64,000 nt of DNA from Escherichia coli (GCF_009931435.1 NZ_CP043414.1), one strand, 5' to 3'. Shown: positions 1-42,911, numbered from the stretch's first letter. Numbers and translations: made by a program. The notes: generated from the letters alone by a model not told the origin.

Positions 1-730
1 GCGCACGCTCTGTTGATGGTGGGTGAGAGTCAAACATGGACTGGGTACGGCCGCCATCCAGGCTGGCCAATTTTTCAAAGCTGCCAACCAGCCCCTGGGT
101 GCTGATGCCACGTTTCTTCAACAGATCAAAGGAGAAATCATCTGCTTCGGACTCTTTATCGCGGGAGTATTTAGCATTGATCGCGCCTTCTGCGATATCA
201 CCTAATTGTGAGCGAGAAAGCTGGGAAGCCACACCGCTGGTAGCGGAAATCGCATCACGTGCGGCAACGATCGCATAAGAAGCTTTCATTTCAGCCAGCG
301 AGTGACCCAACGCGACGTGGCCCAGTTCATGACCCAGAACGCCTTCAATTTCGTTGTCGTTCATCATGTCCATCAGGCCACTGTAGACACGAACACAGCC
401 GTTCGCCATCGCCCATGCGTTGACGTCGCTGGTCATATAAACCTTATAGTTGACCGGCGTGCCATTAATATTGTTACCCAATGCTTTGGCGATTTTTGCC
501 AGACGTTTACCGTACTTGCTGGATTTACTTGCGACTTGATTGCCGCTGTCCATTTCGGCACAGCCCTGATTGGCAATCGCTTTTGCATCAGCATCGCTTA
601 ACGTTGCTGCTTTATAGGCATTTAAACCTGAGCTGATAGCCATATTGGTATCAATACCGTGGGTATTCTGACACCCTGTCAGTAAAGCTGCAGAGGCCGC
701 AATCGCCAGCAGTAATTTAGTATTCTTCAT
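1..730 (-). CDS. ycaL: M48-family Zn metalloprotease lipoprotein YcaL, partial (N-terminal 243 codons; 3' end outside window)
   Basis: Reverse-complement translation from ATG at 728-730 gives MKNTKLLLAIAASAALLTGC... (lipobox LTGC) and an HExxH motif (GHELGH). The frame stays open to the window edge. Position next to aroA matches K-12 synteny. Confidence 0.8.
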   Translation of the reverse strand, partial: MKNTKLLLAIAASAALLTGCQNTHGIDTNMAISSGLNAYKAATLSDADAKAIANQGCAEMDSGNQVASKSSKYGKRLAKIAKALGNNINGTPVNYKVYMTSDVNAWAMANGCVRVYSGLMDMMNDNEIEGVLGHELGHVALGHSLAEMKASYAIVAARDAISATSGVASQLSRSQLGDIAEGAINAKYSRDKESEADDFSFDLLKKRGISTQGLVGSFEKLASLDGGRTQSMFDSHPPSTERA

Positions 731-23781: not shown

Positions 23782-26700
23782 TTAGTCAAACGGAGGTGGG
23801 GCCAATACTTCACGATTACCATTGTGCCCCTGTTCGCTGACAATCCCCTGCGCTTCCATCTGTTCGATAATCCGCGCCGCACGGTTATAACCAATGCGGA
23901 ACTGACGCTGTACGCCTGAAATTGACGCTTTGCGTTTTTCAGTGACAAACTGCACTGCCTGATCGAACAACGGATCCAATTCTTCAGCGCCATCGAAACC
24001 ACCCGCACCACCTTCGCTTTCGCTGTCGGAGGTGATGCCGTCAACATACTGTGGGCGACCACGCGCTTTCCAGTCCTGCACCACGGCATGAACTTCCTGA
24101 TCGCGAACAAAAGCACCATGAACACGTACCGGCAACGTGGAGTTCGGCCCAGAGTAAAGCATATCCCCCATACCCAGCAGTGATTCCGCGCCAGCCTGAT
24201 CAAGAATGGTACGTGAGTCAATCTTACTGGATACGGTAAAGGCGATACGGGTCGGAATATTCGCTTTAATCAGACCAGTAATAACATCAACCGATGGACG
24301 CTGAGTTGCCAGTACGAGGTGGATACCTGCAGCACGGGCTTTTTGCGCCAGACGTGCTATCAGCTCTTCCACTTTTTTACCTACCGTCATCATCAGGTCG
24401 GCAAATTCGTCCACCAACACCACAATGTACGGTTCCTTTTTCAGCACCGGATGCTGGGCATCCATACTGTCACCCGGCTTCCAGTACGGGTCTGGAATCG
24501 GACGCATCATGCGATCGGCTTCAGCAATTTTTTCGTTATAACCCGCCAGATTACGCACACCCAGTGCAGACATCAGTTTATAACGACGCTCCATCTCGTT
24601 AACACACCAGCGCAGCGCGTTGGCGGCATCTTTCATATCGGTAACGACTTCCGTTAACAGGTGCGGAATGCCTTCATAAACCGAAAGCTCCAGCATTTTC
24701 GGGTCGATCATGATGAAACGCACATCTTCTGGCTGTGCTTTATAAAGCATGCTCAGGATCATCGCGTTCACACCGACAGATTTACCGGAACCGGTAGTCC
24801 CCGCAACCAACAAGTGCGGCATTTTCGCCAGATCGGCAACCACCGGCTCACCGGCGATATCTTTACCCAGCACCACGGTTAATGGCGACGGATTATCGCG
24901 GAATTTGGCGTTATCCAAAACTTCGCGCAGATAAACGGTTTGTCGTTTTTTATTCGGTAACTCCAGACCTACATAAGGTTTGCCAGGAATAACTTCAACG
25001 ACACGCACCGCCACCGTCGAAAGTGAACGGGCAAGGTCACGTGACAAGTTAGAAATACGCGCCGCTTTTACGCCCGGTGCCAGGTTCAATTCAAAGCGAG
25101 TGATAACCGGCCCCGGAGAATAATTGACGACATCGGCTTTAATACGGAAATCAGCCAGACGCGCTTCCACCAGACGCGCCATTTGTTCAAGCGCAAAGGT
25201 ATCTACCGGCTCCACTTCGCTCGGCGGCGGTGTCAGCAAATCCAGAGAAGGCAGCGGCGTCGTAGGTTTATGCAACGGACGGCTGTCGCCATTACGCATT
25301 AACAGCGGATGAAGCAGGGTATCCTGCGGCTGCGGCGCAACTGGCTGTTGCGGCTGCTGATATTGCTGCTGTGGTGCAACCGGCTGTTGTGGCTGCTGAT
25401 ACTGCGGCTGTGGTGCAACCGGCTGTTGCGGCTGCTGATATTGCGGCTGCTGTGCAACCGGTTGTTGCGGCTGCTGATATTGTTGCTGCGGCGCAACTGG
25501 TTGTTGCGGCTGCTGATATTGTTGCTGCGGTGCTACCGGTTGTTGCGGCTGCTGTACAGGTTCAACAATTGGCGTAAACAGCGGTTCGTGTGGACCATCA
25601 TCCAGCAACGCTTTCATTGGCGAAAATTCAAAATCATCCAGCGAGAACGGATTCGCCCCAGCCGGTTGTTCGCCGGAATAACGTTGTTGTTGAGTTTGAG
25701 CAAACTGACGAGCCAGTTCTGCCTCTGCCGCAGCATCTGCATCTTCTGTGTTCACGGGCACATCATGTTGATACTGTTCGCCATAGCGTTGCTGCTGCGT
25801 TTGGGCGAACTGACGTGCCAGTTCATCCTGCTGCATCGCATCGATTTCATCATCGTTGTACTGATCGCCAGAATCGTACTGATTGCGCTGGGCTTCACGG
25901 GCTTTTTCTTCTGCTGCACGCTGTGAGGGCAGCTTAATGCCATATGACGCCAGTTCACGACGAGTTGGCACGCGGATACGTTTCGGTCGTGGCAACTGCG
26001 GGCCAATCCCCTCTTTGACCTGCGGACGCGGTCCACCGCTATTTGCCAGACTGAAGACTGGTGCGGCAACGGTTGCGGCAGCCCCCGTCGCCAGTGTCGC
26101 TTTTTTCACGCCAGATGCCAGAGGGGAAACAGCGGCAGCGGCTTCCACTGGAGGTACTGCTGCAACAGAAGGTGCTTTAAGCGAAGATTTGATCGGTTCT
26201 GGTTCTTTAACCGGTTCAGGAATCGGTTGATACCAGGCCGCAAGTTGTTCACGTTCACGGGCACGCTTCTCTTCCACTTCTTCAAAATAGTAAAGCGGCG
26301 GACGCGCGGGTTTTGTCTCTTCTACAATGGGTTCAGGCTCCACAACAGGCTGCTGTTCAACGGGTTGCGGCTGTTGGTACAACGGCTCCTGAGCGGCTGG
26401 CTGCTGATAAGTTTGCTCCGTCTGGTATGTAGACTGTGGAGCAAAAGTGGATTGCTGCTCTTCGGCTTGCCAGGCGTTACCTGCCACCGGTTGTTCTGGC
26501 GCAGGGGCGTAATACGGCTGTTGCGCAGACTGTTCCGGCGCAGGAGCGTAGTAAGGTTGTTGCACAGGCTGTTCAGCTGCAGGCGCATAATACGGCTGCT
26601 GTGGCTGTACAGGTTGTTGCAGCGGCTCATTATATTGCACTGCAGGCTGCGCATATTGTGACTGCTGTGGGTAACCTTCCGGTGCAGGTGCAATAACCGG

Positions 26701-27810
26701 TTCTCCCGTTTGCGGCCCCGGTACAGGCTGCCAGGCTACTGTAGGTTGCGTAGGTGGAACATCAACAGAGGCAACTGGCGGCGTCTGAGTCACAGGTTCA
26801 ACCGGTGCAGCCCAGCTTTGTGTCGCCGTGGTAGCAGCAGCTGCTACAGCAACAGGTTCGGTAATTGGCGCACCGTTTAATAATGGATCGTATTCGTCAT
26901 ATTCTGGCTGCGTTGCACGATTGCCCGAAAAGAGGACGTCGTCAGGGTCGGCAGCCACACCGCGTGCAGTGTAGGTAATCTCTTCTTCATCATCCATCCG
27001 CTTACCGGAGAACAACGCAGCATCTGTTTGCCGCCCCATCGGATTAATGAATTTTTCCGCCAGACGTTTACGACGTGCTAGCGCGCCGCGAAGAATACGG
27101 GCACGGCGCGATTCATGCTGTTTGCCGTGATTTTCATCTTCATATTCTTCGTCGTCTTCATACTCATCTTCATCGACCCAGGTATCATCGCGACGGGTAC
27201 GATTACTGGCGAAGGTGAGAATGTTTAAAATCCAGCCGCCGAGTTTTTCAGCAATGGTCACCCATGACCAACCGGTGAACAGCGTCAGGCCCGCTGCCCA
27301 AACGCAGAGCAGCGCAATAGTTCCCCCGCTACTGTGTAGCAGTGGTTGTAGCGTAGTGCTTAGTAAGCTGCCGATGACGCCACCGGAGGCAAAATACCAG
27401 ATATCGTCAGCGTTGATTGCCGCCAGACCACAAGAGGTAAGGATTAGCGCCAAAACGCCAATGATGCGTAGCGAAACGGCAAAATAATCAATGTATTCGT
27501 CACTGGACTGATGACGCCAGGCAAACCAACAACCGCCGACGATAATGACGGGAATGGTGTAAGCCATCACGCCAAAAATAAAGAACAGCGTATCTGCCAG
27601 CCACGCACCGGGCATTCCACCTAAATTATGGATAGGCTCATGCCAGGCCGTTTGCGACCAGCTGGGGTCCGAAGGGTTAAAGCTTAGTAAGGCAGCCATC
27701 AACCAGACGGCAAACAGGACAATAAGGATCAGCAACGCCTCCAGAAGTCGGCGGCCGCTACTTAACTTTGTCAATGTGACTTCTTTGTCTTCAGTGTATT
27801 CCTGGCTCAA
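23782..27810 (-). CDS. ftsK: DNA translocase FtsK (with Pro/Gln-rich repeat linker)
   Basis: 1342-aa ORF: N-terminal membrane domain, long PQ-rich linker, C-terminal motor (Walker A GTTGSGKS) and gamma domain. Longer than the 1329 aa I recall for K-12, consistent with linker-repeat polymorphism. Confidence 0.97.
25321..25560 (-). repeat. In-frame tandem repeats of about 39 bp (about 6 copies) encoding [10 protein letters not shown](Q/P)QY units in the FtsK linker
   Basis: Direct reading of the sequence (ctgttgcggctgctgatattgctgctgtggtgcaaccgg... repeated) and the translated protein. Confidence 0.8.
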
Positions 27811-29976: not shown

Positions 29977-30016
29977 AAGGCGACACCATGCGACTATGGG
30001 TCGCCTTTATTTTTTC
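29977..30016 (+). terminator. Intrinsic terminator of trxB
   Basis: Hairpin aaggcgac...gtcgcctt followed by TTTATTTTTT. Confidence 0.5.
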
Positions 30017-30071
30017 CTCGTTGTAACATTGCTCTGCAAATAATTCTGATAACTCACCTGCTAAGCGTGCA

Positions 30072-31838
30072 ATGAATAAATCCCGTCAAAAAGAGTTAAC
30101 CCGCTGGTTAAAACAGCAAAGCGTCATCTCCCAACGTTGGCTGAATATTTCTCGTCTGCTGGGCTTTGTGAGCGGCATATTGATCATTGCCCAGGCCTGG
30201 TTCATGGCGCGAATTCTGCAACATATGATTATGGAGAATATTCCCCGTGAAGCCCTGCTGCTTCCCTTTACGTTACTGGTTCTGACCTTTGTACTGCGCG
30301 CATGGGTGGTCTGGTTACGAGAACGGGTGGGTTATCACGCCGGGCAGCATATCCGCTTTGCCATCCGACGTCAGGTTCTCGACCGTCTGCAACAAGCAGG
30401 GCCAGCGTGGATTCAGGGTAAACCGGCGGGGAGCTGGGCGACGCTGGTACTCGAGCAAATTGACGATATGCATGATTACTATGCACGCTACCTGCCGCAA
30501 ATGGCGCTGGCAGTGTCGGTGCCGTTGCTGATTGTGGTGGCGATCTTCCCCTCTAACTGGGCTGCGGCGCTCATTCTGCTGGGCACTGCTCCGTTAATTC
30601 CGTTATTTATGGCGCTGGTTGGAATGGGGGCTGCCGATGCTAACCGACGCAACTTTCTCGCTCTTGCTCGCTTAAGTGGACATTTCCTCGATCGCCTGCG
30701 CGGCATGGAAACATTGCGTATTTTTGGTCGTGGTGAAGCTGAAATTGAAAGTATTCGTTCTGCTTCGGAAGATTTCCGCCAACGGACAATGGAAGTGCTA
30801 CGGCTGGCGTTTTTATCCTCCGGCATTCTCGAATTTTTTACCTCGCTGTCAATTGCTCTGGTCGCGGTCTACTTTGGTTTTTCCTATCTCGGTGAGCTGG
30901 ATTTTGGGCACTACGATACTGGCGTGACGCTGGCTGCGGGGTTTCTGGCCCTGATCCTTGCGCCGGAGTTTTTCCAGCCATTGCGCGATCTGGGTACGTT
31001 TTATCATGCTAAAGCCCAGGCTGTTGGCGCGGCAGACAGTCTGAAAACGTTTATGGAAACCCCGCTCGCCCATCCGCAGCGCGGTGAGGCTGAATTAACG
31101 TCGACCGATCCGGTGACCATTGAGGCCGAGGATCTGTTTATTACATCACCAGAAGGTAAAACGCTGGCCGGACCGCTGAACTTTACTTTGCCAGCAGGCC
31201 AACGTGCAGTGTTGGTTGGTCGCAGCGGTTCAGGTAAAAGCTCACTGCTGAACGCGCTTTCTGGTTTTCTCTCATATCAGGGATCGCTACGAATCAACGG
31301 GATAGAATTACGCGATTTATCACCGGAATCATGGCGTAAACATCTCTCCTGGGTTGGGCAAAACCCACAATTACCAGCAGCAACACTACGAGATAACGTA
31401 CTGCTGGCACGACCTGATGCCAGCGAACAAGAGTTACAAACAGCACTGGATAACGCGTGGGTCAGTGAGTTTCTACCGCTCCTGCCACAAGGAGTTGATA
31501 CGCCTGTTGGCGACCAGGCTGCCCGCCTTTCCGTAGGCCAGGCACAACGTGTGGCGGTGGCGCGTGCATTACTGAATCCCTGTTCGCTATTACTGTTGGA
31601 TGAACCCGCAGCAAGCCTTGATGCTCACAGTGAACAGCGCGTAATGGAGGCGCTGAATGCCGCCTCTCTGCGCCAGACAACGTTAATGGTCACCCACCAG
31701 TTAGAAGATCTTGCTGACTGGGATGTCATTTGGGTAATGCAGGATGGTCAGATTATCGAGCAAGGACGTTACGCGGAATTAAGCGTGGCTAACGGTCCTT
31801 TTGCCACATTGCTGGCCCATCGTCAGGAGGAGATTTAA
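30072..31838 (+). CDS. cydD: Cysteine/glutathione ABC exporter subunit CydD (required for cytochrome bd assembly)
   Basis: 588-aa ORF with an N-terminal TMD and C-terminal ABC ATPase (GRSGSGKSS; LSVGQAQR signature region). Confidence 0.97.
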   Translation: MNKSRQKELTRWLKQQSVISQRWLNISRLLGFVSGILIIAQAWFMARILQHMIMENIPREALLLPFTLLVLTFVLRAWVVWLRERVGYHAGQHIRFAIRRQVLDRLQQAGPAWIQGKPAGSWATLVLEQIDDMHDYYARYLPQMALAVSVPLLIVVAIFPSNWAAALILLGTAPLIPLFMALVGMGAADANRRNFLALARLSGHFLDRLRGMETLRIFGRGEAEIESIRSASEDFRQRTMEVLRLAFLSSGILEFFTSLSIALVAVYFGFSYLGELDFGHYDTGVTLAAGFLALILAPEFFQPLRDLGTFYHAKAQAVGAADSLKTFMETPLAHPQRGEAELTSTDPVTIEAEDLFITSPEGKTLAGPLNFTLPAGQRAVLVGRSGSGKSSLLNALSGFLSYQGSLRINGIELRDLSPESWRKHLSWVGQNPQLPAATLRDNVLLARPDASEQELQTALDNAWVSEFLPLLPQGVDTPVGDQAARLSVGQAQRVAVARALLNPCSLLLLDEPAASLDAHSEQRVMEALNAASLRQTTLMVTHQLEDLADWDVIWVMQDGQIIEQGRYAELSVANGPFATLLAHRQEEI

Positions 31839-33560
31839 ATGCGCGCTTTGCTACCCTATCTGGCTCTGTATAAACGTCATAAATGGATGTTAAGCCTTGG
31901 CATTGTGCTAGCAATTGTCACACTGCTCGCCAGTATCGGTCTGTTGACACTTTCCGGCTGGTTCCTCTCCGCCTCAGCGGTGGCGGGCGTTGCAGGACTG
32001 TATAGCTTCAACTATATGCTACCCGCTGCAGGCGTGCGTGGCGCAGCAATCACCCGTACCGCCGGGCGTTATTTTGAACGTCTGGTGAGCCATGACGCGA
32101 CTTTCCGCGTGTTGCAGCATCTGCGCATTTACACCTTCAGCAAATTGCTCCCCCTCTCCCCTGCCGGACTGGCGCGCTATCGTCAGGGCGAATTGCTCAA
32201 CCGCGTGGTGGCGGATGTTGATACGCTCGATCATCTTTACCTGCGCGTTATCTCGCCGCTGGTGGGCGCTTTTGTGGTGATTATGGTGGTGACAATCGGG
32301 TTAAGTTTCCTTGATTTCACCCTCGCCTTTACGCTGGGCGGCATTATGTTACTGACGCTTTTGCTGATGCCACCGCTGTTTTATCGTGCGGGAAAAAGCA
32401 CCGGGCAAAATCTGACTCATCTTCGCGGGCAGTATCGCCAACAACTGACAGCCTGGCTGCAAGGGCAAGCTGAGCTGACCATTTTTGGTGCCAGCGATCG
32501 TTATCGCACGCAATTAGAGAATACTGAAATTCAGTGGCTGGAAGCGCAACGCCGTCAATCTGAACTGACAGCTTTGTCGCAAGCAATAATGCTGTTAATT
32601 GGCGCGTTAGCGGTGATCCTGATGCTGTGGATGGCGTCTGGCGGCGTTGGTGGCAATACTCAACCAGGCGCGTTAATTGCCCTGTTTGTCTTCTGTGCGT
32701 TAGCCGCGTTTGAAGCACTGGCACCAGTAACGGGTGCATTTCAGCATCTGGGGCAAGTCATTGCCTCTGCCGTACGGATCACCGATTTAACGGATCAAAA
32801 ACCTGAAGTCACCTTCCCTGATACCCAAACCCGTGTTGCCGATTGCGTTTCGCTGACGTTACGGGATGTTCAGTTCACTTATCCGGAGCAATCCCAACAA
32901 GCACTGAAAGGGATTTCTCTTCAAGTAAACGCCGGAGAACATATTGCGATTCTCGGGCGAACCGGATGCGGTAAATCAACATTGTTACAACTGCTGACCC
33001 GCGCATGGGACCCGCAACAGGGCGAGATTTTACTTAACGATAGCCCCATAGCCAGCCTGAACGAAGCAACTCTACGACAGACCATCAGCGTTGTGCCACA
33101 GCGAGTGCATCTGTTTAGCGCCACACTGCGTGATAATCTGTTACTCGCCTCGCCTGGCAGTAGTGATGAAGTTTTGGCGGAGATCTTGCGTCGAGTTGGT
33201 CTGGAGAAGCTGCTCGAGGATGCAGGTCTCAACAGTTGGTTAGGTGAAGGCGGACGCCAGCTCTCCGGTGGTGAACTGCGCCGTCTGGCTATCGCCCGTG
33301 CGCTGTTACATGATGCGCCACTGGTATTGCTGGATGAACCTACCGAAGGCTTAGATGCCACAACTGAAAGTCAGATCCTTGAATTACTTGCAGAAATGAT
33401 GCGTGAGAAAACGGTGTTAATGGTCACCCATCGACTTCGCGGGCTCTCTCGTTTCCAGCAAATAATAGTGATGGACAACGGGCAAATTATTGAGCAAGGT
33501 ACTCACGCAGAACTGCTTGCCCGACAGGGGCGTTATTACCAGTTTAAGCAGGGTTTGTAA
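31839..33560 (+). CDS. cydC: Cysteine/glutathione ABC exporter subunit CydC
   Basis: 573-aa ORF; its start overlaps the cydD stop (TAAATG), which suggests translational coupling. ABC motifs present (GRTGCGKST; LSGGELRR). Confidence 0.97.
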   Translation: MRALLPYLALYKRHKWMLSLGIVLAIVTLLASIGLLTLSGWFLSASAVAGVAGLYSFNYMLPAAGVRGAAITRTAGRYFERLVSHDATFRVLQHLRIYTFSKLLPLSPAGLARYRQGELLNRVVADVDTLDHLYLRVISPLVGAFVVIMVVTIGLSFLDFTLAFTLGGIMLLTLLLMPPLFYRAGKSTGQNLTHLRGQYRQQLTAWLQGQAELTIFGASDRYRTQLENTEIQWLEAQRRQSELTALSQAIMLLIGALAVILMLWMASGGVGGNTQPGALIALFVFCALAAFEALAPVTGAFQHLGQVIASAVRITDLTDQKPEVTFPDTQTRVADCVSLTLRDVQFTYPEQSQQALKGISLQVNAGEHIAILGRTGCGKSTLLQLLTRAWDPQQGEILLNDSPIASLNEATLRQTISVVPQRVHLFSATLRDNLLLASPGSSDEVLAEILRRVGLEKLLEDAGLNSWLGEGGRQLSGGELRRLAIARALLHDAPLVLLDEPTEGLDATTESQILELLAEMMREKTVLMVTHRLRGLSRFQQIIVMDNGQIIEQGTHAELLARQGRYYQFKQGL

Positions 33561-33601
33561 GCTATTATTGAACGATCCGACTTGCGTGGAGTTTTGCGGT
33601 C

Positions 33602-34306
33602 ATGCGCCTGGTTCAGCTTTCTCGCCATTCAATAGCCTTCCCCTCCCCGGAAGGCGCATTACGTGAGCCTAACGGCCTGCTGGCACTGGGGGGCGATCTT
33701 AGCCCTGCGCGCCTGTTAATGGCTTATCAGCGTGGTATTTTTCCGTGGTTTTCTCCAGGCGACCCCATCCTCTGGTGGTCGCCCGATCCTCGCGCGGTAC
33801 TATGGCCTGAATCATTGCATATCAGCCGTAGTATGAAACGATTTCATAAACGCTCGCCCTATCGTGTCACGATGAATTACGCCTTTGGTCAGGTCATTGA
33901 AGGCTGTGCCAGCGATCGCGAAGAAGGAACCTGGATCACGCGTGGCGTGGTCGAAGCCTACCATCGCCTTCACGAACTCGGTCATGCCCACTCCATCGAA
34001 GTCTGGTGTGAAGATGAGCTTGTCGGCGGTATGTACGGCGTGGCCCAGGGAACGCTATTTTGTGGCGAGTCTATGTTCAGCCGGATGGAAAACGCGTCCA
34101 AAACAGCGCTACTGGTCTTCTGTGATGAATTTATCCGTCACGGTGGCAAACTTATCGACTGCCAGGTCCTTAACGATCACACAGCTTCGCTTGGTGCCTG
34201 CGAAATTCCCCGCCGGGATTATCTAAATTATCTCAATCAAATGCGCCTCGGACGATTGCCGAATAATTTCTGGGTACCACGGTGCTTGTTTTCACCACAA
34301 GAATGA
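33602..34306 (+). CDS. aat: Leucyl/phenylalanyl-tRNA--protein transferase
   Basis: 234-aa [53 protein letters not shown]... recognised as Aat. Confidence 0.95.
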
Positions 34307-34587
34307 ATGTTTTCGGCACATTTCTCCCCAGAGTGTTATAATTGCGGTCGCAGAGTTGGTTACGCTCATTACCCCGCTGCCGATAAGGAATTTTTCGCGT
34401 CAGGTAACGCCCATCGTTTATCTCACCGCTCCCTTATACGTTGCGCTTTTGGTGCGGCTTAGCCGTGTGTTTTCGGAGTAATGTGCCGAACCTGTTTGTT
34501 GCGATTTAGCGCGCAAATCTTTACTTATTTACAGAACTTCGGCATTATCTTGCCGGTTCAAATTACGGTAGTGATACCCCAGAGGAT

Positions 34588-34809
<222 letters not shown>

Positions 34810-34850
34810 TTGTTTTACCGCCTGATGGGCGAAGAGAAAGAACGAGTAAA

Positions 34851-34878
34851 AGGTCGGTTTAACCGGCCTTTTTATTTT
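34851..34878 (+). terminator. Intrinsic terminator of infA
   Basis: Hairpin aggtcggtt-taa-aaccggcct followed by TTTTTATTTT. Confidence 0.5.
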
Positions 34879-35067
34879 GTGATATGTATGAAGTACTTTG
34901 GAAGTATAAGTCCATAACATAACTTGTCTCGATGTAGATATACTGCACAACTTGTTTACAGTATGAGCAAACAATAATTATCATTAAAATTCTTCTTGAC
35001 CGTTTTACTCCAACTCCCTATAGTAGCGCCCCGTTGCCCCCCATGAGGTCAGGCAGCAAAACAATTT

Positions 35068-35155
35068 GGTGAGGTGTCCGAGTGGCTGAAGGAGCACGCC
35101 TGGAAAGTGTGTATACGGCAACGTATCGGGGGTTCGAATCCCCCCCTCACCGCCA
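35068..35155 (+). tRNA. serW: tRNA-Ser (GGA anticodon; serW/serX type, long variable arm)
   Basis: ggtgaggtgtccgagtggctgaaggagcacgcctGGAaagtgtgtatacggcaacgtatcgggggttcgaatccccccctcaccgcca: class II tRNA with acceptor-stem complementarity, GGA in the anticodon loop, T-loop GGTTCGAATCC and 3' CCA encoded. Confidence 0.95.
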
Positions 35156-35168
35156 TATTTGAAGAAGA

Positions 35169-35199
35169 GCTCGTACGAAAGTACGGGCTTTTTTTTCGC
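35169..35199 (+). terminator. Intrinsic terminator downstream of the tRNA-Ser gene
   Basis: Hairpin ctcgtac-gaaa-gtacggg (GAAA tetraloop) followed by T8. Confidence 0.6.
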
Positions 35200-35206
35200 A
35201 TTTTAT

Positions 35207-35286
35207 CTGCCTGTACGGCAGTGAACGGTATAAAAATCGAGTTTTTCTTTCGGTTGGCTTTCTAAGCTGCCTGTACGGCAGTGAAC
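35207..35286. repeat. Two copies of a 20-bp direct repeat (ctgcctgtacggcagtgaac) spaced 60 bp apart, each with an internal palindrome
   Basis: Exact duplicate at 35207-35226 and 35267-35286, read directly from the sequence. Confidence 0.55.
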
Positions 35287-35498
35287 TCAAATACTACACG
35301 TTTAGCTCGTTGTTAATAAAGAAAAATCATCTCATTTTCCTGCTGCCACCCTTTTTTATTCTTACCTTCCAGCACCATTAATTATCAACAACTTACCTTC
35401 ACCTCCAAAAATAGGGTTTTCACCATTCCACCCTACAAATAAAAAGTCCGTAACCCCTGACGAGATTACGGACTTCACAAACCTACCTAACAATCAGA

Positions 35499-37775
35499 TT
35501 AATGCGCTGCTTCCGCCTTGTGCTTTTGTGCACTCTGGAATCCGTAAGTCAGCTCATTTTTCTCTTTATCCAGCGCAACCGTCACCTGACCGCCGTCCAC
35601 CAGCGAACCAAACAACAGTTCGTTGGCGAGCGGTTTTTTCAGGTTGTCCTGGATGACACGCGCCATCGGACGTGCGCCCATTGCCCGGTCGTAACCTTTC
35701 TCGGCCAGCCAGTTACGCGCTTCCTGGCTCACTTCCAGAGAAACACCTTTCTGATCCAGCTGAACCTGTAACTCGACGATGAACTTATCCACCACCTGAT
35801 GGATCACGTCGGTTGACAGATGATCAAACCAGATAATGTTGTCGAGACGGTTACGGAATTCCGGTGTAAAGATCTTCTTGATCTCTTCCATCGCATCGGT
35901 GCTGTTATCCTGGTGGATAAGACCAATGGATTTACGCTCAGTTTCCCGTACCCCGGCATTAGTGGTCATCACCAGCACCACGTTACGGAAGTCCGCTTTG
36001 CGTCCGTTGTTATCGGTCAGCGTACCGTTGTCCATCACCTGCAACAGAATATTGAACACGTCCGGGTGCGCTTTCTCGATTTCGTCCAGCAGCAGCACCG
36101 CATGAGGATGCTTGATGACCGCATCAGTCAGCAAACCGCCCTGATCAAAACCAACGTATCCCGGAGGCGCACCAATCAGACGGCTGACGGTATGGCGTTC
36201 CATATACTCGGACATATCAAAGCGCAGAAGCTCAATGCCCAAAGCTTTCGAAAGCTGTACCGTCACCTCTGTTTTCCCGACCCCGGTAGGGCCGGCAAAC
36301 AGGAACGAACCGACTGGTTTATGTTCGTGACCTAAACCTGCACGCGCCATCTTAATGGCTTCAGTCAGCGCCTCAATGGCTTTATCCTGACCGAAGACCA
36401 GCATTTTCAGGCGATCGCTGAGGTTTTTCAGGGTATCGCGGTCACTCTGAGAAACACTCTTCTCTGGAATGCGCGCAATACGGGCCACCACGGACTCAAT
36501 ATCCGCCACATTAACGGTTTTCTTGCGTTTGCTTACCGGCATCAGGCGTGCGCGAGCGCCCGCTTCGTCGATAACGTCAATGGCTTTATCCGGCAGATGA
36601 CGATCGTTAATGTATTTCACCGCCAGCTCTACCGCTGCACGCACCGCTTTTGCGGTATAACGCACGTCATGGTGCGCTTCGTACTTCGGTTTCAGGCCGT
36701 TGATGATCTGTACGGTTTCTTCAATCGACGGTTCAGTAATATCAATTTTCTGGAAGCGACGCGCCAGAGCACGGTCTTTCTCGAAAATGTTGCTGAACTC
36801 CTGATAGGTTGTCGAACCAATTACGCGAATTTTACCGCTTGAGAGCAACGGTTTGATCAGGTTAGCCGCATCAACCTGACCACCAGAGGCTGCACCCGCA
36901 CCGATAATGGTGTGGATCTCATCAATAAACAGGATGCTGTTAGTGTCCTGCTCCAGCTGCTTGAGCAACGCTTTAAAACGTTTTTCAAAGTCGCCGCGAT
37001 ATTTTGTGCCCGCTAACAGAGAACCGATATCGAGAGAGTAAATCGTACAGTCAGCCATCACTTCCGGCACATCGCCCTGAACAATTCGCCAGGCAAGACC
37101 TTCCGCAATCGCGGTTTTGCCGACACCGGATTCCCCCACCAGCAGCGGGTTGTTTTTACGGCGACGGCAGAGAACCTGAATAGCACGCTCCAGCTCCTTC
37201 TCACGACCAATCAGTGGGTCGATTCCGCCCACACGCGCAAGCTGATTCAGGTTCGTCGTGAAATTCTCCATACGTTCCTCCCCACCAGCTTGTTCTTCGC
37301 TGTTTGGCTGGCTGCCAGGATCAGAAGACTGTGTCGGCTCGTCTTTACGCGTGCCATGAGAGATAAAGTTCACCACATCGAGACGGCTGACTTCATGTTT
37401 GCGCAACAGATATGCCGCCTGCGACTCCTGTTCGCTAAAGATAGCGACCAGAACGTTTGCACCGGTAACCTCATTGCGACCGGAGGACTGGACATGGAAG
37501 ACCGCACGTTGCAGTACACGCTGAAAACTCAGCGTTGGCTGTGTGTCGCGCTCCTCTTCACTGGCAGGCAGAACGGGTGTGGTTTGTTCAATAAAGGCTT
37601 CCAGTTCCTGACGGAGCGCAACCAAATCCACAGAACACGCTTCCAGCGCCTCCCGGGCAGATGGGTTACTGAGCAGCGCCAGTAACAAGTGCTCGACGGT
37701 CATAAACTCATGACGGTGCTCGCGCGCTCTGGCGAAAGCCATATTTAAACTGAGTTCCAGTTCTTGATTGAGCAT
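35499..37775 (-). CDS. clpA: ATP-dependent Clp protease ATP-binding subunit ClpA
   Basis: ATG at 37773-37775 ([35 protein letters not shown]...) gives 758 aa with two AAA+ modules (GESGVGKT; GPTGVGKT). Confidence 0.97.
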
Positions 37776-37805
37776 AGGCACCTCCCCCAATTTTTATGCC
37801 TGCAT

Positions 37806-38126
37806 TCAGGCTTTTTCTAGCGTACACAGCAATGGATGCTCATTCTCCCTCGCGTACTTGTTCACCATCGCCACTTTGGTTTCTGCAACCTCGGCGGTAA
37901 AGACTCCGCAAATGGCCTTCCCCTGGTAGTGAACAGCGAGCATCAATTGCGTTGCACGTTCTACATCATAAGAAAAGAATTTTTGTAACACGTCAATAAC
38001 AAACTCCATCGGAGTGTAATCATCATTGACTAATATCACTTTATACATAGATGGCGGTTTTAGCGCGTCGCGAACTTTTTCTTCCGCCAGTTGATCAAAG
38101 TCCAGCCAGTCGTTCGTTTTACCCAT
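37806..38126 (-). CDS. clpS: ClpAP adaptor protein ClpS (N-end rule recognition)
   Basis: 106-aa [50 protein letters not shown]... immediately upstream of clpA. Confidence 0.97.
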
Positions 38127-38448
38127 TGTCAGTTATCATCTTCGGTTACGGTTATCGGCAGAACGCCCTGCCGCTGACAAGAGCTTATTTGCCTGACCAA
38201 TCTACTCCACATGATAGATAACTATCATCTATCGTTGGCATCAGCGACATCTGTCACATTCCTGTCAATAGCGTTAACTGCTTCAAATTTTTGATTCATA
38301 CCTGCCCCCTGGCCCCTGTCAAATGCTTGACGGCTCGCCCTAATTCTCTAAATTGTATTTCTAGAGTTGGCGAGGTTTTGAACAGCCCCCTCTCTGACCC
38401 CGGTTTATTCCATCTTACTTGTATAAGATTTGCGAAGGATGTCGAAGC

Positions 38449-38673
38449 ATGGAAAAGGGTACTGTTAAGTGGTTCAACAATGCCAAAGGGTTTGGTTTCA
38501 TCTGCCCTGAAGGCGGCGGCGAAGATATTTTCGCTCATTATTCCACCATTCAGATGGATGGTTACAGAACGCTAAAAGCTGGACAATCCGTTCAGTTTGA
38601 TGTCCACCAGGGGCCAAAAGGCAATCACGCCAGTGTTATTGTGCCCGTCGAAGTAGAAGCGGCAGTCGCATAG
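38449..38673 (+). CDS. cspD: Cold-shock-domain protein CspD (stationary-phase replication inhibitor)
   Basis: ATG at 38449 (MEKGTVKWFNNAKGFGFICPEGGGEDIFAHYSTIQMDGYRTLKAGQSVQFDVHQGPKGNHASVIVPVEVEAAVA) gives 74 aa with RNP-like motifs. Confidence 0.95.
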   Translation: MEKGTVKWFNNAKGFGFICPEGGGEDIFAHYSTIQMDGYRTLKAGQSVQFDVHQGPKGNHASVIVPVEVEAAVA

Positions 38674-38706
38674 CTCTTCTGTCTCATTGTGTACATCCTA
38701 CAGGCA

Positions 38707-38736
38707 AAATGCCAGCCCGATCGGCTGGCATTTTTA
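38707..38736. terminator. Bidirectional hairpin terminator between convergent cspD and macB
   Basis: Inverted repeat gccagcc-gatc-ggctggc flanked by A- and T-runs. Confidence 0.5.
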
Positions 38737-38745
38737 TCTCAAAAA

Positions 38746-40692
38746 TTACTCTCGTGCCAAAGCATCTACTGGATCCAGTCGTGCCGCATTTCGTGCGGGT
38801 AACCAGCCAAATAAAATCCCGGTGACCGTCGAGCAGAGAAACGCCAGCAGCAGTGCCAACGGTGAAAAACCGATCTCCCAACCGGGTAAGAAAAGCTGCA
38901 AGGTGAAAGCAATTAACAGTGACAGTGTTATTCCCAACGCACCGCCGACCAGACAAACCAGCACGGCTTCGATCAGAAACTGTTGCAAAACATCGCTTGC
39001 TCGCGCACCTACAGCCATGCGAATGCCAATTTCCCGCGTCCGCTCGGTCACTGACACCAGCATAATATTCATTACACCAATACCGCCCACCACCAGCGAA
39101 ATCACCGCCACCAGCGTCAGAAACAGTTGTAAAGTACGTGTGGTCTTTTCAACGGTTTTCAAGACGCCGTCCATGTTCCAGGTAAAGAAATCCTTCTTAC
39201 CGTGGCGCAGTGAAAGTAAACGCGTGAGTTGCTGTTCCGCCTCGGCGCTGTCAAAGCCCTCTTTCACCCTGACAGTAATAGAGTTCAGCCACGACTGGCC
39301 CATAACTCTCCCGGACATCGTGCTGTAAGGTAACCACACGCGCAGCACTTTACTACTGCCAAACATCGACTGTTTTTCCTCTGCCACGCCGATGACTCTC
39401 GCTGGCATATTACCAACCAAGATAACCTCGCCAACCACATTTGCTTTATGGGGGAAAAGCTGACGGCGAGTATTACTGTCGAGAACCACGACTTGCGCAC
39501 GGCCATTCAGCTGTTCCTGATTAAAGGTGTTCCCTTCACTGAAGGTCATGCCATAGACATTAAAATAATCGCCGCTCACGCCATTGGCACTGGCAGCCAC
39601 ATCGACATTGTTATAACGCAGGCGCAGGTTTTGCGAGACGGCAGGTGTGGCTGAGGCGACCCACGGTTGTTTTTGGATGGCGATTAAGTCGTCGTACTTC
39701 AGCGCCTGCTGATATTGCGGATCGTCATCGCCAAAATCTTTCCCGGGATAGACATCAATAGTATTCGTACCAATAGAACGAATATCCGCCAGCACCATTT
39801 GTTTGGCGGCGTCGCCGACCACGACAATGGAAACCACCGACGCAATACCGATAATAATCCCCAGCATGGTCAGTAAAGTACGCATTTTATTCGCTGCCAG
39901 CGCCCGCCACGCCATCGTCAGCGCCTCGTTAAAACCGCTGACAAACTGCCGCCAGCCAGACGCCGTGTTGATAACAGGCTCCGTCCCGCCAGCAACATTC
40001 ACTTTTTCAATGGCGGGAGGATTGCGCACAATTTCGCCGTCGCGAATTTCGATCACCCGCTCGGCCTGAGCAGCGACCTGCGGATCGTGGGTAACGATAA
40101 TCACCGTATGCCCGCGATCGCGCAGCTGATGCAGGATCGCCATTACCTCCTCACCGGAATGGCTGTCCAGTGCGCCTGTCGGTTCATCGGCAAGAATTAC
40201 CTGACCGCCGTTCATCAATGCCCGCGCGATGCTGACGCGCTGTTGCTGACCACCCGAAAGCTGTGCCGGATAATACTCTGTACGGTCTTCAAGCCCCAGT
40301 CGTTGCAATAACTTCTGGGCACGAAGCAGTCGCTGTTTCCGCTCAAGACCCGCATAGACGGCGGGTACTTCAACATTCTGCTCGGCGGTTAAATGTGAAA
40401 GCAAATGGTAACGCTGGAAAATAAAGCCGAAGTGTTCGCGACGCAGTTGCGCCAGCGCATCGGCGTCCAGCATGGCAACATCCTGACCGGCGACGCGATA
40501 GGTGCCGCTGGTGGCCTTATCCAGGCAGCCGAGAATATTCATCAGGGTCGATTTACCGGAACCCGAAGCGCCGACAATCGCCACCATCTCACCAGCATAA
40601 ATATCGAGGGTGATGCCCTTCAGCACCTCAACCTGCTCATCACCGGCAGGATAGCTGCGACGAATATCCTTTAATTCGAGCAAGGGCGTCAT
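38746..40692 (-). CDS. macB: Macrolide ABC exporter ATPase/permease fusion protein MacB
   Basis: 648-aa ORF with an N-terminal ABC ATPase (GASGSGKST; [15 protein letters not shown]) and C-terminal FtsX-like permease. Confidence 0.97.
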
Positions 40693-41804
40693 TGTGCAGC
40701 TCCTGGTTTGGCCTCACCAATCACCACTTCATCGCCCGCTTCCAGCCCTTTGACAATCTCAACATCGGTGTCGTTACGTGCACCAATCGTCACTTCACGC
40801 TCGCGTGTTTCACCATTACGCAACAATTTGACTTTATAACGATTATCGCCAACCGGATCGCCTAACGCCGACAGAGGGATCGTCAGCACATTTTTCACAT
40901 CGGTGAGCTGAATATGCACTTGCGCGGTCATATCCAGCCGCAGCAAACCATTGGGGTTGGGTACTTCAAAACGGGCGTAATAGAAAATAGCGTCGTTAAC
41001 CTTTTCCGGCGTCGGTAGCACATCCTTGATTTGCCCCTCATAGCGCGTCAGCGGATCGCCAAGCACCGTAAACCAGGCTTTTTGCCCCGGCTTCAGGTGG
41101 ATTACATCCGCTTCAGAAACCTGCGCTTTTACCAGCATGGTGCTCATATCTGCCAGCGTCAGAATGTTCGGTGCTTGTTGTGCGGCAATCACCGTCTGGC
41201 CTTGCAGAGTGGTGATTTGCGTGACTTCCCCGGCCATCGGGGCAACGATGCGGGTGTAATCGAGATTGGTTTTAGCCGTATCGAGTGAGGCCTGATTACG
41301 CTTGATTTGCGCGTCAATGGTGCCAATTTGCGCCTGTTTCACAGCCATCTCCGTCGCGGCGGTATCGAGATCCTGCTGTGAAACCGCCTGCGTTTGTGCA
41401 AGACGTTGCTGACGGGAATACGTCACCCGCGCCAGTTTCAGCTCCGCTTCCGCCTGCTGCCGCTGCGCGCGTAGCTCCATCAGCGTTGCTTCCACCTCCT
41501 TGATCTGGTTTTCAGCTTGTTCAGGATCAATAACCCCTAAAAGCTGGTCTTTTTTTACTTTATCGCCAATCGCCACCGACAGCGTTTTCAACTGACCGCT
41601 GACCTGCGCGCCCACATCAACCTTACGCAGCGCGTCCAGCTTTCCGGTCGCCAGCACGCTTTGCTGTAAATCACCGGGGCGCACAATCAGCGTCTGATAA
41701 GTCGGCACGGGTGCGTTAAGAATTCTCCATAACGTAATCAGCCCGGCAATGACTATCACCAGCGCAATAACGTAACGCTTCTTCACGGTTTTCCGCTTTT
41801 TCAT
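40689..41804 (-). CDS. macA: Macrolide efflux periplasmic adaptor (membrane fusion protein) MacA
   Basis: ATG at 41802-41804 ([21 protein letters not shown]...) gives 371 aa; the stop overlaps the macB start by 4 nt. Confidence 0.95.
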
Positions 41805-41918
41805 AAATATTCTGAATACTCCATATGCCAATCCGGGTCATTAACTTCAACGAAATATCAACAAAACCCTAAAATTTACGTTAGTAATCACACTATTGAT
41901 GTTTGGTTAAGATACGCC

Positions 41919-42911
41919 ATGGTGAAATCGACGTTATGTACAACCATTGATTTCATGAATATGTCGCAGCTAACTGAACGGACCTTTACGCCATCTGAAT
42001 CTCTCAGCAGCCTGTCACTTTTTCTTAGTCTGGCACGTGGACAGTGTCGGCCGGGTAAATTTTGGCATCGCCGTAGTTTTCGCCAGAAATTTTTGCTGCG
42101 CTCGTTGATTATGCCGCGTTTAAGCGTTGAGTGGATGAACGAACTTTCCCACTGGCCGAATCTCCATGTGTTGTTAACGCGCCAGCCGCGACTGCCTGTG
42201 CGTCTGCATCGCCCTTACCTTGCGGCGAATCTTAGCCGCAAGCAATTGCTGGAGGCGTTACGTTACCATTATGCATTGCTTCGTGCCTGCATGTCGGCAG
42301 AAGAATTCAGCTTATATTTGAATACTCCCGGGCTGCAACTGGCGAAGCTGGAAGGCAAAAACGGCGAGCAGTTCACACTTGAGCTGACCATGATGATCTC
42401 AATGGATAAAGAAGGTGACAGCACAATCCTGTTCCGCAACAGCGAAGGTATTCCTCTGGCAGAGATCACCTTTACTCTGTGTGAATACCAGGGGAAAAGA
42501 ACAATGTTTATTGGCGGGCTGCAAGGTGCGAAATGGGAAATTCCACATCAGGAAATCCAGAATGCGACGAAAGCCTGCCACGGGCTATTTCCCAAACGTC
42601 TCGTGATGGAAGCGGCCTGTCTGTTTGCCCAACGTTTGCAGGTAGAGCAGATCATTGCCGTCAGCAATGAAACACATATTTACCGCAGCCTGCGTTATCG
42701 CGATAAAGAAGGCAAGATCCATGCTGATTACAACGCGTTCTGGGAGTCGGTTGGCGGCGTATGTGATGCTGAACGCCATTACCGCCTTCCGGCACAGATA
42801 GCACGAAAAGAGATTGCCGAAATCGCCAGTAAAAAACGGGCTGAATACCGTCGGCGCTATGAGATGCTCGACGCTATTCAGCCACAAATGGCCACGATGT
42901 TTCGCGGTTAA
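41919..42911 (+). CDS. ybjX: VirK/DUF535-family protein YbjX
   Basis: 330-aa ORF; position and length match K-12 YbjX. Confidence 0.85.
   Translation: MVKSTLCTTIDFMNMSQLTERTFTPSESLSSLSLFLSLARGQCRPGKFWHRRSFRQKFLLRSLIMPRLSVEWMNELSHWPNLHVLLTRQPRLPVRLHRPYLAANLSRKQLLEALRYHYALLRACMSAEEFSLYLNTPGLQLAKLEGKNGEQFTLELTMMISMDKEGDSTILFRNSEGIPLAEITFTLCEYQGKRTMFIGGLQGAKWEIPHQEIQNATKACHGLFPKRLVMEAACLFAQRLQVEQIIAVSNETHIYRSLRYRDKEGKIHADYNAFWESVGGVCDAERHYRLPAQIARKEIAEIASKKRAEYRRRYEMLDAIQPQMATMFRG

What the first reader, a model, noticed from the sequence alone, without database searches (positions are those of the whole stretch)
25321..25560. ftsK linker: 39-bp in-frame tandem repeats giving a length variant
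The FtsK linker contains about six tandem 39-bp units encoding 13-aa [10 protein letters not shown](Q/P)QY repeats with small synonymous and Q/P differences between copies. The ORF is 1342 aa, against the 1329 aa I recall for K-12 FtsK, which suggests one extra repeat unit. Such repeats are slippage- and recombination-prone and can serve as strain markers.
Basis: partly seen in the sequence, partly recalled or inferred. Interest (0 to 1): 0.35.

Follow-up and report, generated by a model that had tools for sequence, protein, structure and literature searches.

The report
Known ftsK linker VNTR (CVN001/ms07)
The six 39-bp in-frame repeats are real, but they are the well-known E. coli typing locus CVN001/ms07 in the FtsK linker, and the 13 extra residues relative to K-12 come from a second, separate 39-bp repeat (ms06) about 1 kb upstream in the same gene.

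Summary
Observation confirmed. Window 25321..25554 (minus strand) holds six in-frame 39-bp units (TRF: 5.9 copies, 89% match, score 334) encoding [10 protein letters not shown](Q/P)QY inside ftsK (23782..27810, 1342 aa, TTG start).

The flagged array has six units in both the window and K-12. The single 13-aa gap lies in a second 39-bp array (QPYYAPAxEQxxQ, 26482..26598), with three units in the window and two in K-12.

Both arrays are established MLVA markers. Published CVN001 and ms07 primers flank the flagged array (445-bp and 587-bp amplicons). Published ms06 primers flank the second array (340 bp).

In systematic samples of 5,426 complete E. coli genomes the flagged array has 2–9 units (6 units 36%, 7 units 41%) and the second has 1–4. 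The nearest relative differs from the window by one unit at each array, with in-register fusion units at the junctions. This indicates slippage or unequal exchange.

The array sits at the end of the domain-free PQ-rich linker, directly before the crystallised motor domain. It is conserved in position and peptide in Salmonella and Citrobacter.

Verdict: real, ordinary, already known.

The parts
23782..27810 (-). ftsK coding sequence (1342 aa + stop, TTG start)
   Evidence: ORF list. 99% protein identity to K-12 FtsK. Pfam domains FtsK_4TM, FtsK_alpha, FtsK_SpoIIIE and FtsK_gamma. TTG start shared with K-12 and the nearest relative.
25321..25554 (-). Array A, the flagged array: six in-frame 39-bp units (aa 753-830), [10 protein letters not shown](Q/P)QY. 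Equals MLVA locus CVN001 = ms07. Unit starts on the minus strand: 25554, 25515, 25476, 25437, 25398, 25359.
   Evidence: TRF. Unit table. Same unit number as K-12.
26482..26598 (-). Array B: three in-frame 39-bp units (aa 405-443), QPYYAPA(A/P)EQ(P/S)(V/A)(Q/A). Equals MLVA locus ms06. This is the true site of the +13 aa relative to K-12.
   Evidence: TRF 26492..26598, 2.7 copies against 1.9 in K-12. Alignment gap at aa 416-428. Unit table.
25255..27237 (-). FtsK linker (aa 192-852): the domain-free, P/Q/A-rich region between the 4TM domain and the alpha domain
   Evidence: No Pfam domain between residues 191 and 853. Composition over aa 180-830: P 13.8%, Q 15.7%, A 13.1%. Solved structures begin at residue 831.
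25223..25242 (+). CVN001 reverse primer site (exact match)
   Evidence: Primer from PMC8143711 Table 1. Match.
25649..25667 (-). CVN001 forward primer site (exact match). Amplicon 25223..25667 = 445 bp, giving (445-250)/39 = allele 5.
25228..25247 (+). ms07 reverse primer site (exact match)
   Evidence: Primer from PMC8215070 Table 1. Match.
25795..25814 (-). ms07 forward primer site (2 mismatches). Amplicon 25228..25814 = 587 bp.
26372..26391 (+). ms06 reverse primer site (exact match)
26692..26711 (-). ms06 forward primer site (1 mismatch). Amplicon 26372..26711 = 340 bp = allele 3.
27238..27753 (-). FtsK_4TM membrane domain (aa 20-191)
   Evidence: Pfam PF13491, E = 5e-42.
24952..25254 (-). 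FtsK alpha domain (aa 853-953), beginning 23 residues after array A
   Evidence: Pfam PF17854, E = 1e-29. 2IUS aligns from residue 831.
24289..24930 (-). FtsK/SpoIIIE ATPase (beta) domain (aa 961-1174)
   Evidence: Pfam PF01580, E = 9e-88.
23800..23982 (-). FtsK gamma (KOPS/XerD-interacting) domain (aa 1277-1337)
   Evidence: Pfam PF09397, E = 2.5e-28.

Best explanation
The flagged feature is the C-terminal 39-bp (13-codon) minisatellite of the FtsK linker, known in E. coli/Shigella typing as CVN001 or ms07. It encodes six copies of [10 protein letters not shown](Q/P)QY. These form the last about 78 residues of the long PQ-rich tether that joins the membrane/divisome domain of FtsK to its hexameric DNA-pumping motor. 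Because the unit is a whole number of codons, unit gain or loss by replication slippage or unequal homologous exchange between units keeps the reading frame. It only lengthens or shortens the tether, so many length alleles coexist in the species. The window carries one of the two commonest alleles (six units, the same number as K-12). Its 13-aa excess over K-12 comes from a second, independent 39-bp minisatellite in the same linker (ms06; three units against two). Shown here: the anatomy, the identity with the published loci, the population polymorphism, the in-register fusion units, and conservation of the peptide. Inferred, not tested: the mutational mechanism (slippage versus RecA-dependent exchange) and the near-neutrality of length changes.
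For: 1. Anatomy: TRF and unit tables.
2. Location in the domain-free linker, ending directly before the crystallised motor domain.
3. Identity with published VNTR loci. CVN001 primers match exactly and give a 445-bp amplicon that fits the published formula as an integer allele. ms07 and ms06 primers flank arrays A and B and give 587 bp and 340 bp, inside the published size ranges with a 39-bp unit.
4. K-12 comparison: six units in both strains in A; the only gap is in B.
5. Polymorphism, from systematic samples of 5,426 complete E. coli genomes. Array A: 2, 3, 5, 6, 7, 8 and 9 units = 1, 1, 2, 21, 24, 4 and 3 of 59, plus three alleles with sub-unit additions. Array B: 1, 2, 3 and 4 units = 1, 18, 22 and 19 of 60. 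These agree with published CVN001 frequencies (5: 40%, 6: 40%, 7: 13%, 8: 5%, 4: 1%, where their number is our units minus 1) and with published ms06 alleles 2, 3 and 4.
6. Mechanism: against the nearest relative, window A4 and A5 are identical and A6 is an exact in-register A6/A7 fusion. Window B2 is a B2/B3 fusion with 1 difference, against 6 for the best single parent. All indels among four full-length alleles fall inside the two arrays. All alleles examined stay in frame through the array region.
7. Conservation: the same array at the same FtsK position in Salmonella arizonae, Citrobacter spp. and E. whittamii. The Salmonella array is MLVA locus SENTR2 = STTR7.
8. Linker biology from the literature: unstructured, PQ-rich, variable in length between species, dispensable for growth, contacts divisome proteins.
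Against: Nothing contradicts this reading. Limits:
- Copy-number frequencies come from systematic samples of 59-60 rows from a clinically biased genome collection, not a full census, and are not corrected for phylogeny.
- The direction of each event (gain or loss) and the mechanism (slippage or recombination) cannot be told from sequence alone.
- Synonymous variants dominate (11 of 20 distinct variants; p = 0.0005 against a uniform mutation model, p = 0.04 against a transitions-only model). So the peptide is under some constraint and is not a purely neutral spacer.
Confidence: 0.95

Rival explanations
1. One reading: the window's FtsK is 13 aa longer than K-12's because the flagged [13 protein letters not shown] array has one more unit.
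For: The ORF lengths differ by exactly one 13-aa unit, 1342 against 1329. The array does vary by whole units in other strains.
Against: The alignment shows six units in both strains. The single 13-aa gap is at residues 416-428 in array B. TRF gives 5.9 against 5.7 copies for A and 2.7 against 1.9 for B. The flank-to-flank span around array A is 830 bp in both the window and MG1655 (row H77).
Confidence: 0.01
2. The unit number in the window is an assembly artefact (collapsed or expanded repeat), so the 'allele' is not real.
For: Tandem repeats can be mis-assembled from short reads. One related RefSeq ftsK (RM14723) is annotated as frameshifted, which shows that errors occur in this gene.
Against: All six units differ from one another at the DNA level by 3-8 nt, so the 234-bp array is unambiguous to assemble. 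The reading frame is intact. The six-unit/three-unit configuration (4029-bp gene) recurs as single-piece, full-length matches in unrelated complete genomes, for example E. coli C (rows H1, H4, H5, H11, H13, H14).
Confidence: 0.03
3. The 13-aa units are functional modules (for example repeated binding motifs or a polyproline-II rod of set length), and unit number is selected to tune how FtsK couples septum closure to DNA clearance. On this view it is not near-neutral length variation.
For: The peptide is conserved while the DNA drifts: 39 distinct DNA units but only 12 distinct peptides among 53 units; residues 1-5 and 10 are invariant; there is an excess of synonymous variants. The same unit is kept at the same position in Escherichia, Salmonella and Citrobacter. 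The literature reports linker-divisome contacts and a need for the linker for normal FtsK activity.
Against: Natural alleles span 2-9 units in viable isolates. The two modal alleles are about equally common. Swapping an 84-bp ftsK linker indel between Salmonella Enteritidis strains gave no phenotype in the one assay tried. Homogenisation by unequal exchange or gene conversion can also keep units alike without selection on function.
Confidence: 0.1
4. The plus-strand ORF 25309..25926 (205 aa), antisense to the array, is a real gene and the repeat belongs to it.
For: An ATG-started 205-aa ORF exists there.
Against: Its product is a Leu/Arg/Cys-rich low-complexity string. That is the mechanical complement of CAG/CAA/CCG codons, whose reverse complements are never stop codons. 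RefSeq annotations of eleven related loci list only ftsK there. Variation among units is concentrated at ftsK third codon positions, which shows selection on the ftsK frame.
Confidence: 0.01

Closest known systems
CVN001, locus 1 of the generic E. coli MLVA scheme (Lindstedt et al. 2007; GECM-7/GECM-10)
   Same: Both published primers match the window exactly and flank the flagged array. The repeat size is 39 bp. The 445-bp amplicon fits the published offset formula as allele 5. Allele frequencies in our genome sample match the published ones.
   Different: None; it is the same locus. The published allele number is one less than the count of units including the terminal ...QPQD unit.
ms07 and ms06 of the Shigella/E. 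coli MLVA panel (Gorgé et al. 2008; primers as reprinted in PMC8215070)
   Same: ms07 primers flank array A (587 bp; published range 392-821 bp; TR 39 bp). ms06 primers flank array B (340 bp; published range 301-379 bp; alleles 2, 3, 4).
   Different: The window has 2 mismatches to ms07-F and 1 to ms06-F, reflecting its somewhat divergent lineage.
Salmonella ftsK VNTR STTR7 = SENTR2 (39 bp, 9.3 copies in S. Enteritidis)
   Same: Orthologous position in FtsK, between ...GPHEPLFTP... and ...[15 protein letters not shown]. Same 39-bp period and the same [13 protein letters not shown] unit.
   Different: Different genus and different typical copy number. The Salmonella primers were not tested here.
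FtsK linker (FtsK_L) of gamma-proteobacteria
   Same: A long (about 650 aa), proline/glutamine-rich, unstructured tether between FtsK_N and FtsK_C whose length varies between species. The window's linker is aa 192-852.
   Different: The literature read here treats the linker as a whole. It does not assign a specific role to the terminal 13-aa repeat block.

Membership tests
FtsK DNA translocase (gene identity) | N-terminal 4TM domain, alpha/beta ATPase motor and gamma winged-helix domain in one polypeptide | tested here: met
   Pfam hits to PF13491, PF17854, PF01580 and PF09397, all far above their cut-offs. 99% identity to K-12 FtsK. PDB hits 2IUS and 2J5P.
FtsK DNA translocase (gene identity) | Conserved enterobacterial synteny lrp-ftsK-lolA-rarA | tested here: met
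   Annotated order in K-12 and in the nearest relative, aligned in the window's orientation. ORFs of matching size flank ftsK in the window.
CVN001 VNTR (generic E. coli MLVA) | Both published primers flank the array in convergent orientation | tested here: met
   Exact matches at 25223..25242 (+) and 25649..25667 (-); none expected by chance.
CVN001 VNTR (generic E. coli MLVA) | 39-bp repeat; amplicon = 250 + 39n | tested here: met
   445 bp gives n = 5.0. TRF period 39.
CVN001 VNTR (generic E. coli MLVA) | Copy number polymorphic among E. coli isolates | tested here: met
   2-9 units in 59 sampled complete genomes, Simpson D = 0.71. Unit structures read directly in eight alleles.
ms07 / ms06 VNTRs (Shigella/E. 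coli MLVA panel) | Published primer pairs flank a 39-bp-unit array, with amplicon size inside the published range | tested here: met
   ms07: 25228..25814, 587 bp (0 and 2 mismatches). ms06: 26372..26711, 340 bp (0 and 1 mismatches).
Salmonella STTR7/SENTR2 ftsK VNTR (orthologous locus) | Same position in FtsK, same period and same unit | tested here: met
   S. enterica arizonae L018 has [13 protein letters not shown] units at 39-bp spacing between the same flanking motifs. The locus is described as 39 bp in ftsK.
Salmonella STTR7/SENTR2 ftsK VNTR (orthologous locus) | Published STTR7/SENTR2 primers flank it | not tested
   The primer sequences were not retrieved.
Phase-variable contingency locus (repeat-mediated on/off switching) | Unit gain or loss shifts the reading frame or promoter spacing, so expression switches | tested here: not met
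   The unit is 39 bp = 13 codons. All eleven alleles examined remain in frame across the arrays, and even the sub-unit variants are +15 and +18 bp. This is length polymorphism, not switching.
Intrinsically disordered PQ-rich linker | Low-complexity P/Q composition, no recognised domain, absent from solved structures | tested here: met
   Array A is 52% Q and 26% P. No Pfam domain between residues 192 and 852. Solved FtsK structures start at residue 831.
Intrinsically disordered PQ-rich linker | Experimentally or computationally demonstrated disorder of this segment | not tested
   No structure prediction or disorder predictor was run. The literature calls FtsK_L unstructured.

The most novel reading that the evidence does not exclude
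The 13-aa units are not mere spacer. They would be conserved functional modules (a repeated short linear motif or a polyproline-II rod) whose number sets the reach or valency of the FtsK motor at the closing septum. On this reading the common 6- and 7-unit alleles and the rare 2-3- and 8-9-unit alleles differ measurably in how division is coupled to chromosome clearance. The hint is that the peptide is held almost constant across units, strains and three genera while synonymous sites vary.
Probability: 0.08. Interest if true: 0.4.

Novelty: already known. Interest (0 to 1): 0.07.

Why it matters
It matters little beyond bookkeeping. The array is a long-used typing marker (CVN001/ms07), and the PQ-rich FtsK linker is textbook.

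Three practical points follow:
- FtsK length differences between E. coli strains cannot be assigned to one array by arithmetic, because two independent 39-bp minisatellites (ms07/CVN001 and ms06) sit in the same linker and both vary by 13 aa.
- Gene length alone is homoplasious. The same 4029-bp form recurs in unrelated strains, while the closest relative differs at both arrays.
- This lineage has mismatches to the ms06-F and ms07-F primers.

The mild biological point is that the unit peptide looks constrained, which leaves open a functional role for the repeat block.

Tried and rejected
- A full-length ftsK megablast showed length classes, but its pieces broke at the arrays and could not be read as copy numbers. 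I replaced it with array-deleted flank queries.
- The first literature search on linker function returned only unrelated proline/glutamine papers.
- The primary linker-dissection paper (Dubarry et al. 2010) is not held, so finer mapping of linker sub-regions rests on a review.
- In the genome-contig scan for the 10-aa core, 8 of 17 hits were single matches in unrelated PQ-rich proteins of Streptomyces, Bifidobacterium, Demequina, Phycisphaeraceae and gut MAGs. I rejected these as chance.
- Modelling K-12 unit B1 as a B1/B2 fusion was inconclusive (2 differences against 3), so the direction of the K-12 event is left open.
- I suspected a third variable region from the 4074-bp CDS of Z1323HEC0462. 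It turned out to be a partial unit inside array B.
- Two scripts needed repeating, once for a file-layout error and once for a wrong record key.
- Structure prediction of the linker was considered but not run. A single-sequence or shallow-alignment model would be low-confidence whether or not the segment is disordered, so it could not discriminate.

Full report

Yes. Tandem Repeats Finder reports a 39-bp period array at window 25325..25554: 5.9 copies, 89% matches, no indels, score 334. Apart from a sister array in the same gene and a weak 21-bp pair at 56293, it is the only tandem repeat in the 64-kb window.

The array lies on the minus strand inside a 1342-codon ORF, 23782..27810, which starts with TTG. 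In frame it is six 39-bp units occupying 25554 down to 25321 (residues 753-830). The units encode [13 protein letters not shown] (three times), [26 protein letters not shown] and a terminal [13 protein letters not shown]. The six units differ pairwise by 3-8 nt. Eleven nucleotide columns vary, eight of them at third codon positions.

**2. What is the gene?**

The ORF is ftsK.
- It is 99% identical in protein to K-12 MG1655 FtsK.
- It carries FtsK_4TM (aa 20-191), FtsK_alpha (853-953), FtsK_SpoIIIE (961-1174) and FtsK_gamma (1277-1337).
- It sits in the usual lrp-ftsK-lolA-rarA neighbourhood.

No Pfam domain covers residues 192-852. Array A is 52% Gln and 26% Pro. The E. coli FtsK crystal construct 2IUS aligns from residue 831, the residue immediately after the array. 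The array is therefore the last block of the PQ-rich linker, abutting the motor domain.

**3. Where is the 13-aa difference?**

It is not in the flagged array. The pairwise alignment has a single gap of 13 residues at window positions 416-428. The flagged array aligns unit for unit with K-12 and shows four substitutions.

The gap falls in a second 39-bp in-frame array, QPYYAPA(A/P)EQxxQ, at window 26482..26598. TRF gives 2.7 copies here against 1.9 in K-12, which is three units against two. The flank-to-flank span around the flagged array is 830 bp in both the window and MG1655 (row H77).

The broader idea, a repeat-unit length variant in the linker, survives.

**4. Both arrays are named typing loci.**

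*CVN001.* The generic E. coli MLVA scheme uses a locus called CVN001 with a 39-bp repeat. Its allele formula is (amplicon - 250)/39, and its primers are printed in PMC8143711. Both primers match the window exactly, at 25223..25242 (+) and 25649..25667 (-), with none expected by chance. The amplicon is 445 bp, giving allele 5.0.

*ms07 and ms06.* The Shigella/E. coli MLVA panel has two 39-bp loci, ms06 and ms07 (PMC8215070).
- ms07 primers sit at 25228..25247 and 25795..25814 (0 and 2 mismatches). They give 587 bp around the flagged array, within the published range of 392-821 bp.
- ms06 primers sit at 26372..26391 and 26692..26711 (0 and 1 mismatches). They give 340 bp around the second array, within the published range of 301-379 bp for alleles 2, 3 and 4.

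So array A = CVN001 = ms07 and array B = ms06. The window differs from K-12 at ms06 (3 against 2), not at CVN001/ms07.

*Salmonella.* The orthologous Salmonella array is also an MLVA locus: SENTR2 = STTR7, 39 bp, in ftsK (PMC2430564).

**5. Population variation.**

I queried the 5,426 complete E. coli genomes with the two 300-bp flanks of each array joined together, and read the array length from the span of each hit. Each search listed 60 rows taken at even steps down the ranking.

| Array A units | 2 | 3 | 5 | 6 | 6 + 15 bp | 6 + 18 bp | 7 | 8 | 9 |
|---|---|---|---|---|---|---|---|---|---|
| Genomes (n = 59) | 1 | 1 | 2 | 21 | 2 | 1 | 24 | 4 | 3 |

Simpson D for array A is 0.71.

| Array B units | 1 | 2 | 3 | 4 |
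|---|---|---|---|---|
| Genomes (n = 60) | 1 | 18 | 22 | 19 |

Simpson D for array B is 0.69.

These figures agree with published data. CVN001 frequencies in Swedish ESBL isolates were 4: 1%, 5: 40%, 6: 40%, 7: 13% and 8: 5%, where the published number is our unit count minus one. The published ms06 alleles are 2, 3 and 4 with D = 0.63.

Reading eight representative alleles directly confirmed whole-unit variation from 2 to 9 units. It also showed two sub-unit variants: an extra QQPQY, and an internal QQPVAP duplication. Annotated ftsK lengths in these strains run from 3873 to 4185 bp.

Caveats: these are systematic samples, not a census. The collection is clinically biased, and there is no phylogenetic correction.

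**6. Mechanism of change.**

The window belongs to a slightly divergent E. coli lineage. Twelve kb next to ftsK is 99.2% identical to one genome (strain 2020CK-00188) and at most 98.6% identical to all others. That nearest relative has a 1368-aa FtsK with seven A units and four B units.

At the unit level:
- Window A4 and A5 are identical to its A4 and A5.
- Window A6 is an exact in-register fusion of its A6 and A7.
- Window B2 is a fusion of its B2 and B3, with 1 difference against 6 for the best single parent.

Such in-register hybrid units are the footprint expected of replication slippage or unequal homologous exchange between neighbouring units. The sequence alone cannot tell which of the two occurred, or in which direction.

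In an alignment of four full-length alleles, every indel lies inside array A or array B. Because the unit is 13 codons, all alleles stay in frame. This is length polymorphism, not phase variation.

**7. Constraint and evolutionary depth.**

Among 53 units from nine E. coli alleles there are 39 distinct DNA sequences but only 12 distinct peptides. Residues 1-5 and 10 are invariant. The common variants are synonymous, except for the P/Q alternation at residue 11 and the Y-to-D change that ends each array. Eleven of 20 distinct variants are synonymous, against 20% expected under uniform mutation (p = 0.0005) or 33% under transitions only (p = 0.04).

A scan of one genome per species for the 10-residue core found it at 39-bp spacing, and at the same FtsK position, in E. 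coli, Escherichia sp. MOD1-EC7003, E. whittamii, Salmonella enterica arizonae and several Citrobacter species. Species-specific unit variants were spread across copies: QPPQQ... in MOD1-EC7003 and ...QQHY in C. sedlakii. This is consistent with concerted evolution. The eight hits outside Enterobacteriaceae are single chance matches in other PQ-rich proteins.

**8. Function.**

According to the literature read here, FtsK_L is an unstructured, proline/glutamine-rich linker of about 650 aa. Its length varies between species. It is dispensable for growth, contacts FtsZ, FtsQ, FtsL and FtsI, and is needed for normal FtsK activity. In Salmonella Enteritidis, exchanging an 84-bp linker repeat indel between strains had no effect in the one phenotype assayed.

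The best-supported reading is that the array is part of a flexible tether whose exact length is tolerated over a wide range, with some constraint on the peptide. A specific role for the 13-aa module remains possible but untested.

**9. Other strand.**

The 205-aa plus-strand ORF 25309..25926 is a Leu/Arg/Cys-rich translation of the complement of CAG/CAA/CCG codons. Nothing supports it as a gene. The codon-position pattern of variation follows the ftsK frame.

**10. Verdict.**

The feature is already known (CVN001/ms07, with ms06 as its neighbour) and is ordinary. Interest is low.

Noticed in passing
window 26482..26598 (-): A second in-frame 39-bp minisatellite in the FtsK linker (QPYYAPAxEQxxQ; 3 units here, 2 in K-12; 1-4 in sampled E. 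coli). It is MLVA locus ms06 and the real source of the 13-aa difference from K-12.
   Followed up: yes
window 30000..42000 and 23782..27810: The window's lineage is poorly represented among 5,426 complete E. coli genomes. The 12 kb beside ftsK is 99.2% identical to one strain (2020CK-00188) and at most 98.6% to all others. ftsK itself is at best 97.6% identical at the DNA level, although 99% at the protein level to K-12.
   Followed up: partly
window 25795..25814 and 26692..26711: The published ms07-F and ms06-F primers have 2 mismatches and 1 mismatch to this lineage, while both CVN001 primers match perfectly. This could affect PCR-based typing of such strains.
   Followed up: partly
window 25309..25926 (+): A 205-aa antisense ORF runs across the array, with a Leu/Arg/Cys-rich low-complexity product. 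It is a mechanical by-product of stop-free complements of CAG/CAA/CCG codons, and no annotation in related genomes supports it.
   Followed up: partly
window 27133..27174 (-): A small hexanucleotide repeat (TTCATC x7, TRF score 42) encodes the acidic [14 protein letters not shown] stretch just after the membrane domain. It is invariant in the four full-length alleles aligned.
   Followed up: partly
L008 (EC21GDE043) and L009/L028 (Z1323HEC0462): Sub-unit length variants also occur: an extra QQPQY (15 bp) and a QQPVAP duplication (18 bp) in array A, and a unit in array B that is 4 aa short. Slippage therefore also acts on the internal QQP sub-repeat, always in frame.
   Followed up: partly
L010 2705..6811 (strain 2020CK-00188): The nearest relative differs from the window by one unit at both arrays (7 and 4 units against 6 and 3). 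The window's junction units are in-register fusions of its neighbouring units. Even close relatives are therefore not matched at these loci.
   Followed up: yes
L004 (RM14723, NZ_CP027103.1): ftsK is annotated 'frameshifted' (pseudogene) in RefSeq although the array region is in frame. This may be an assembly error elsewhere in the gene.
   Followed up: no
L019 (Escherichia sp. MOD1-EC7003) and L022 (Citrobacter sedlakii): Species-specific unit variants ([13 protein letters not shown]; [13 protein letters not shown]) are present in most units of the array, a pattern of concerted evolution within the array.
   Followed up: partly
window 35068..35155 (+) and 56293..56332: One tRNA-Ser(GGA) gene lies in the usual infA-clpA interval. 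A weak 21-bp x1.9 tandem repeat (TRF score 52) lies elsewhere in the window. Both appear ordinary.
   Followed up: no
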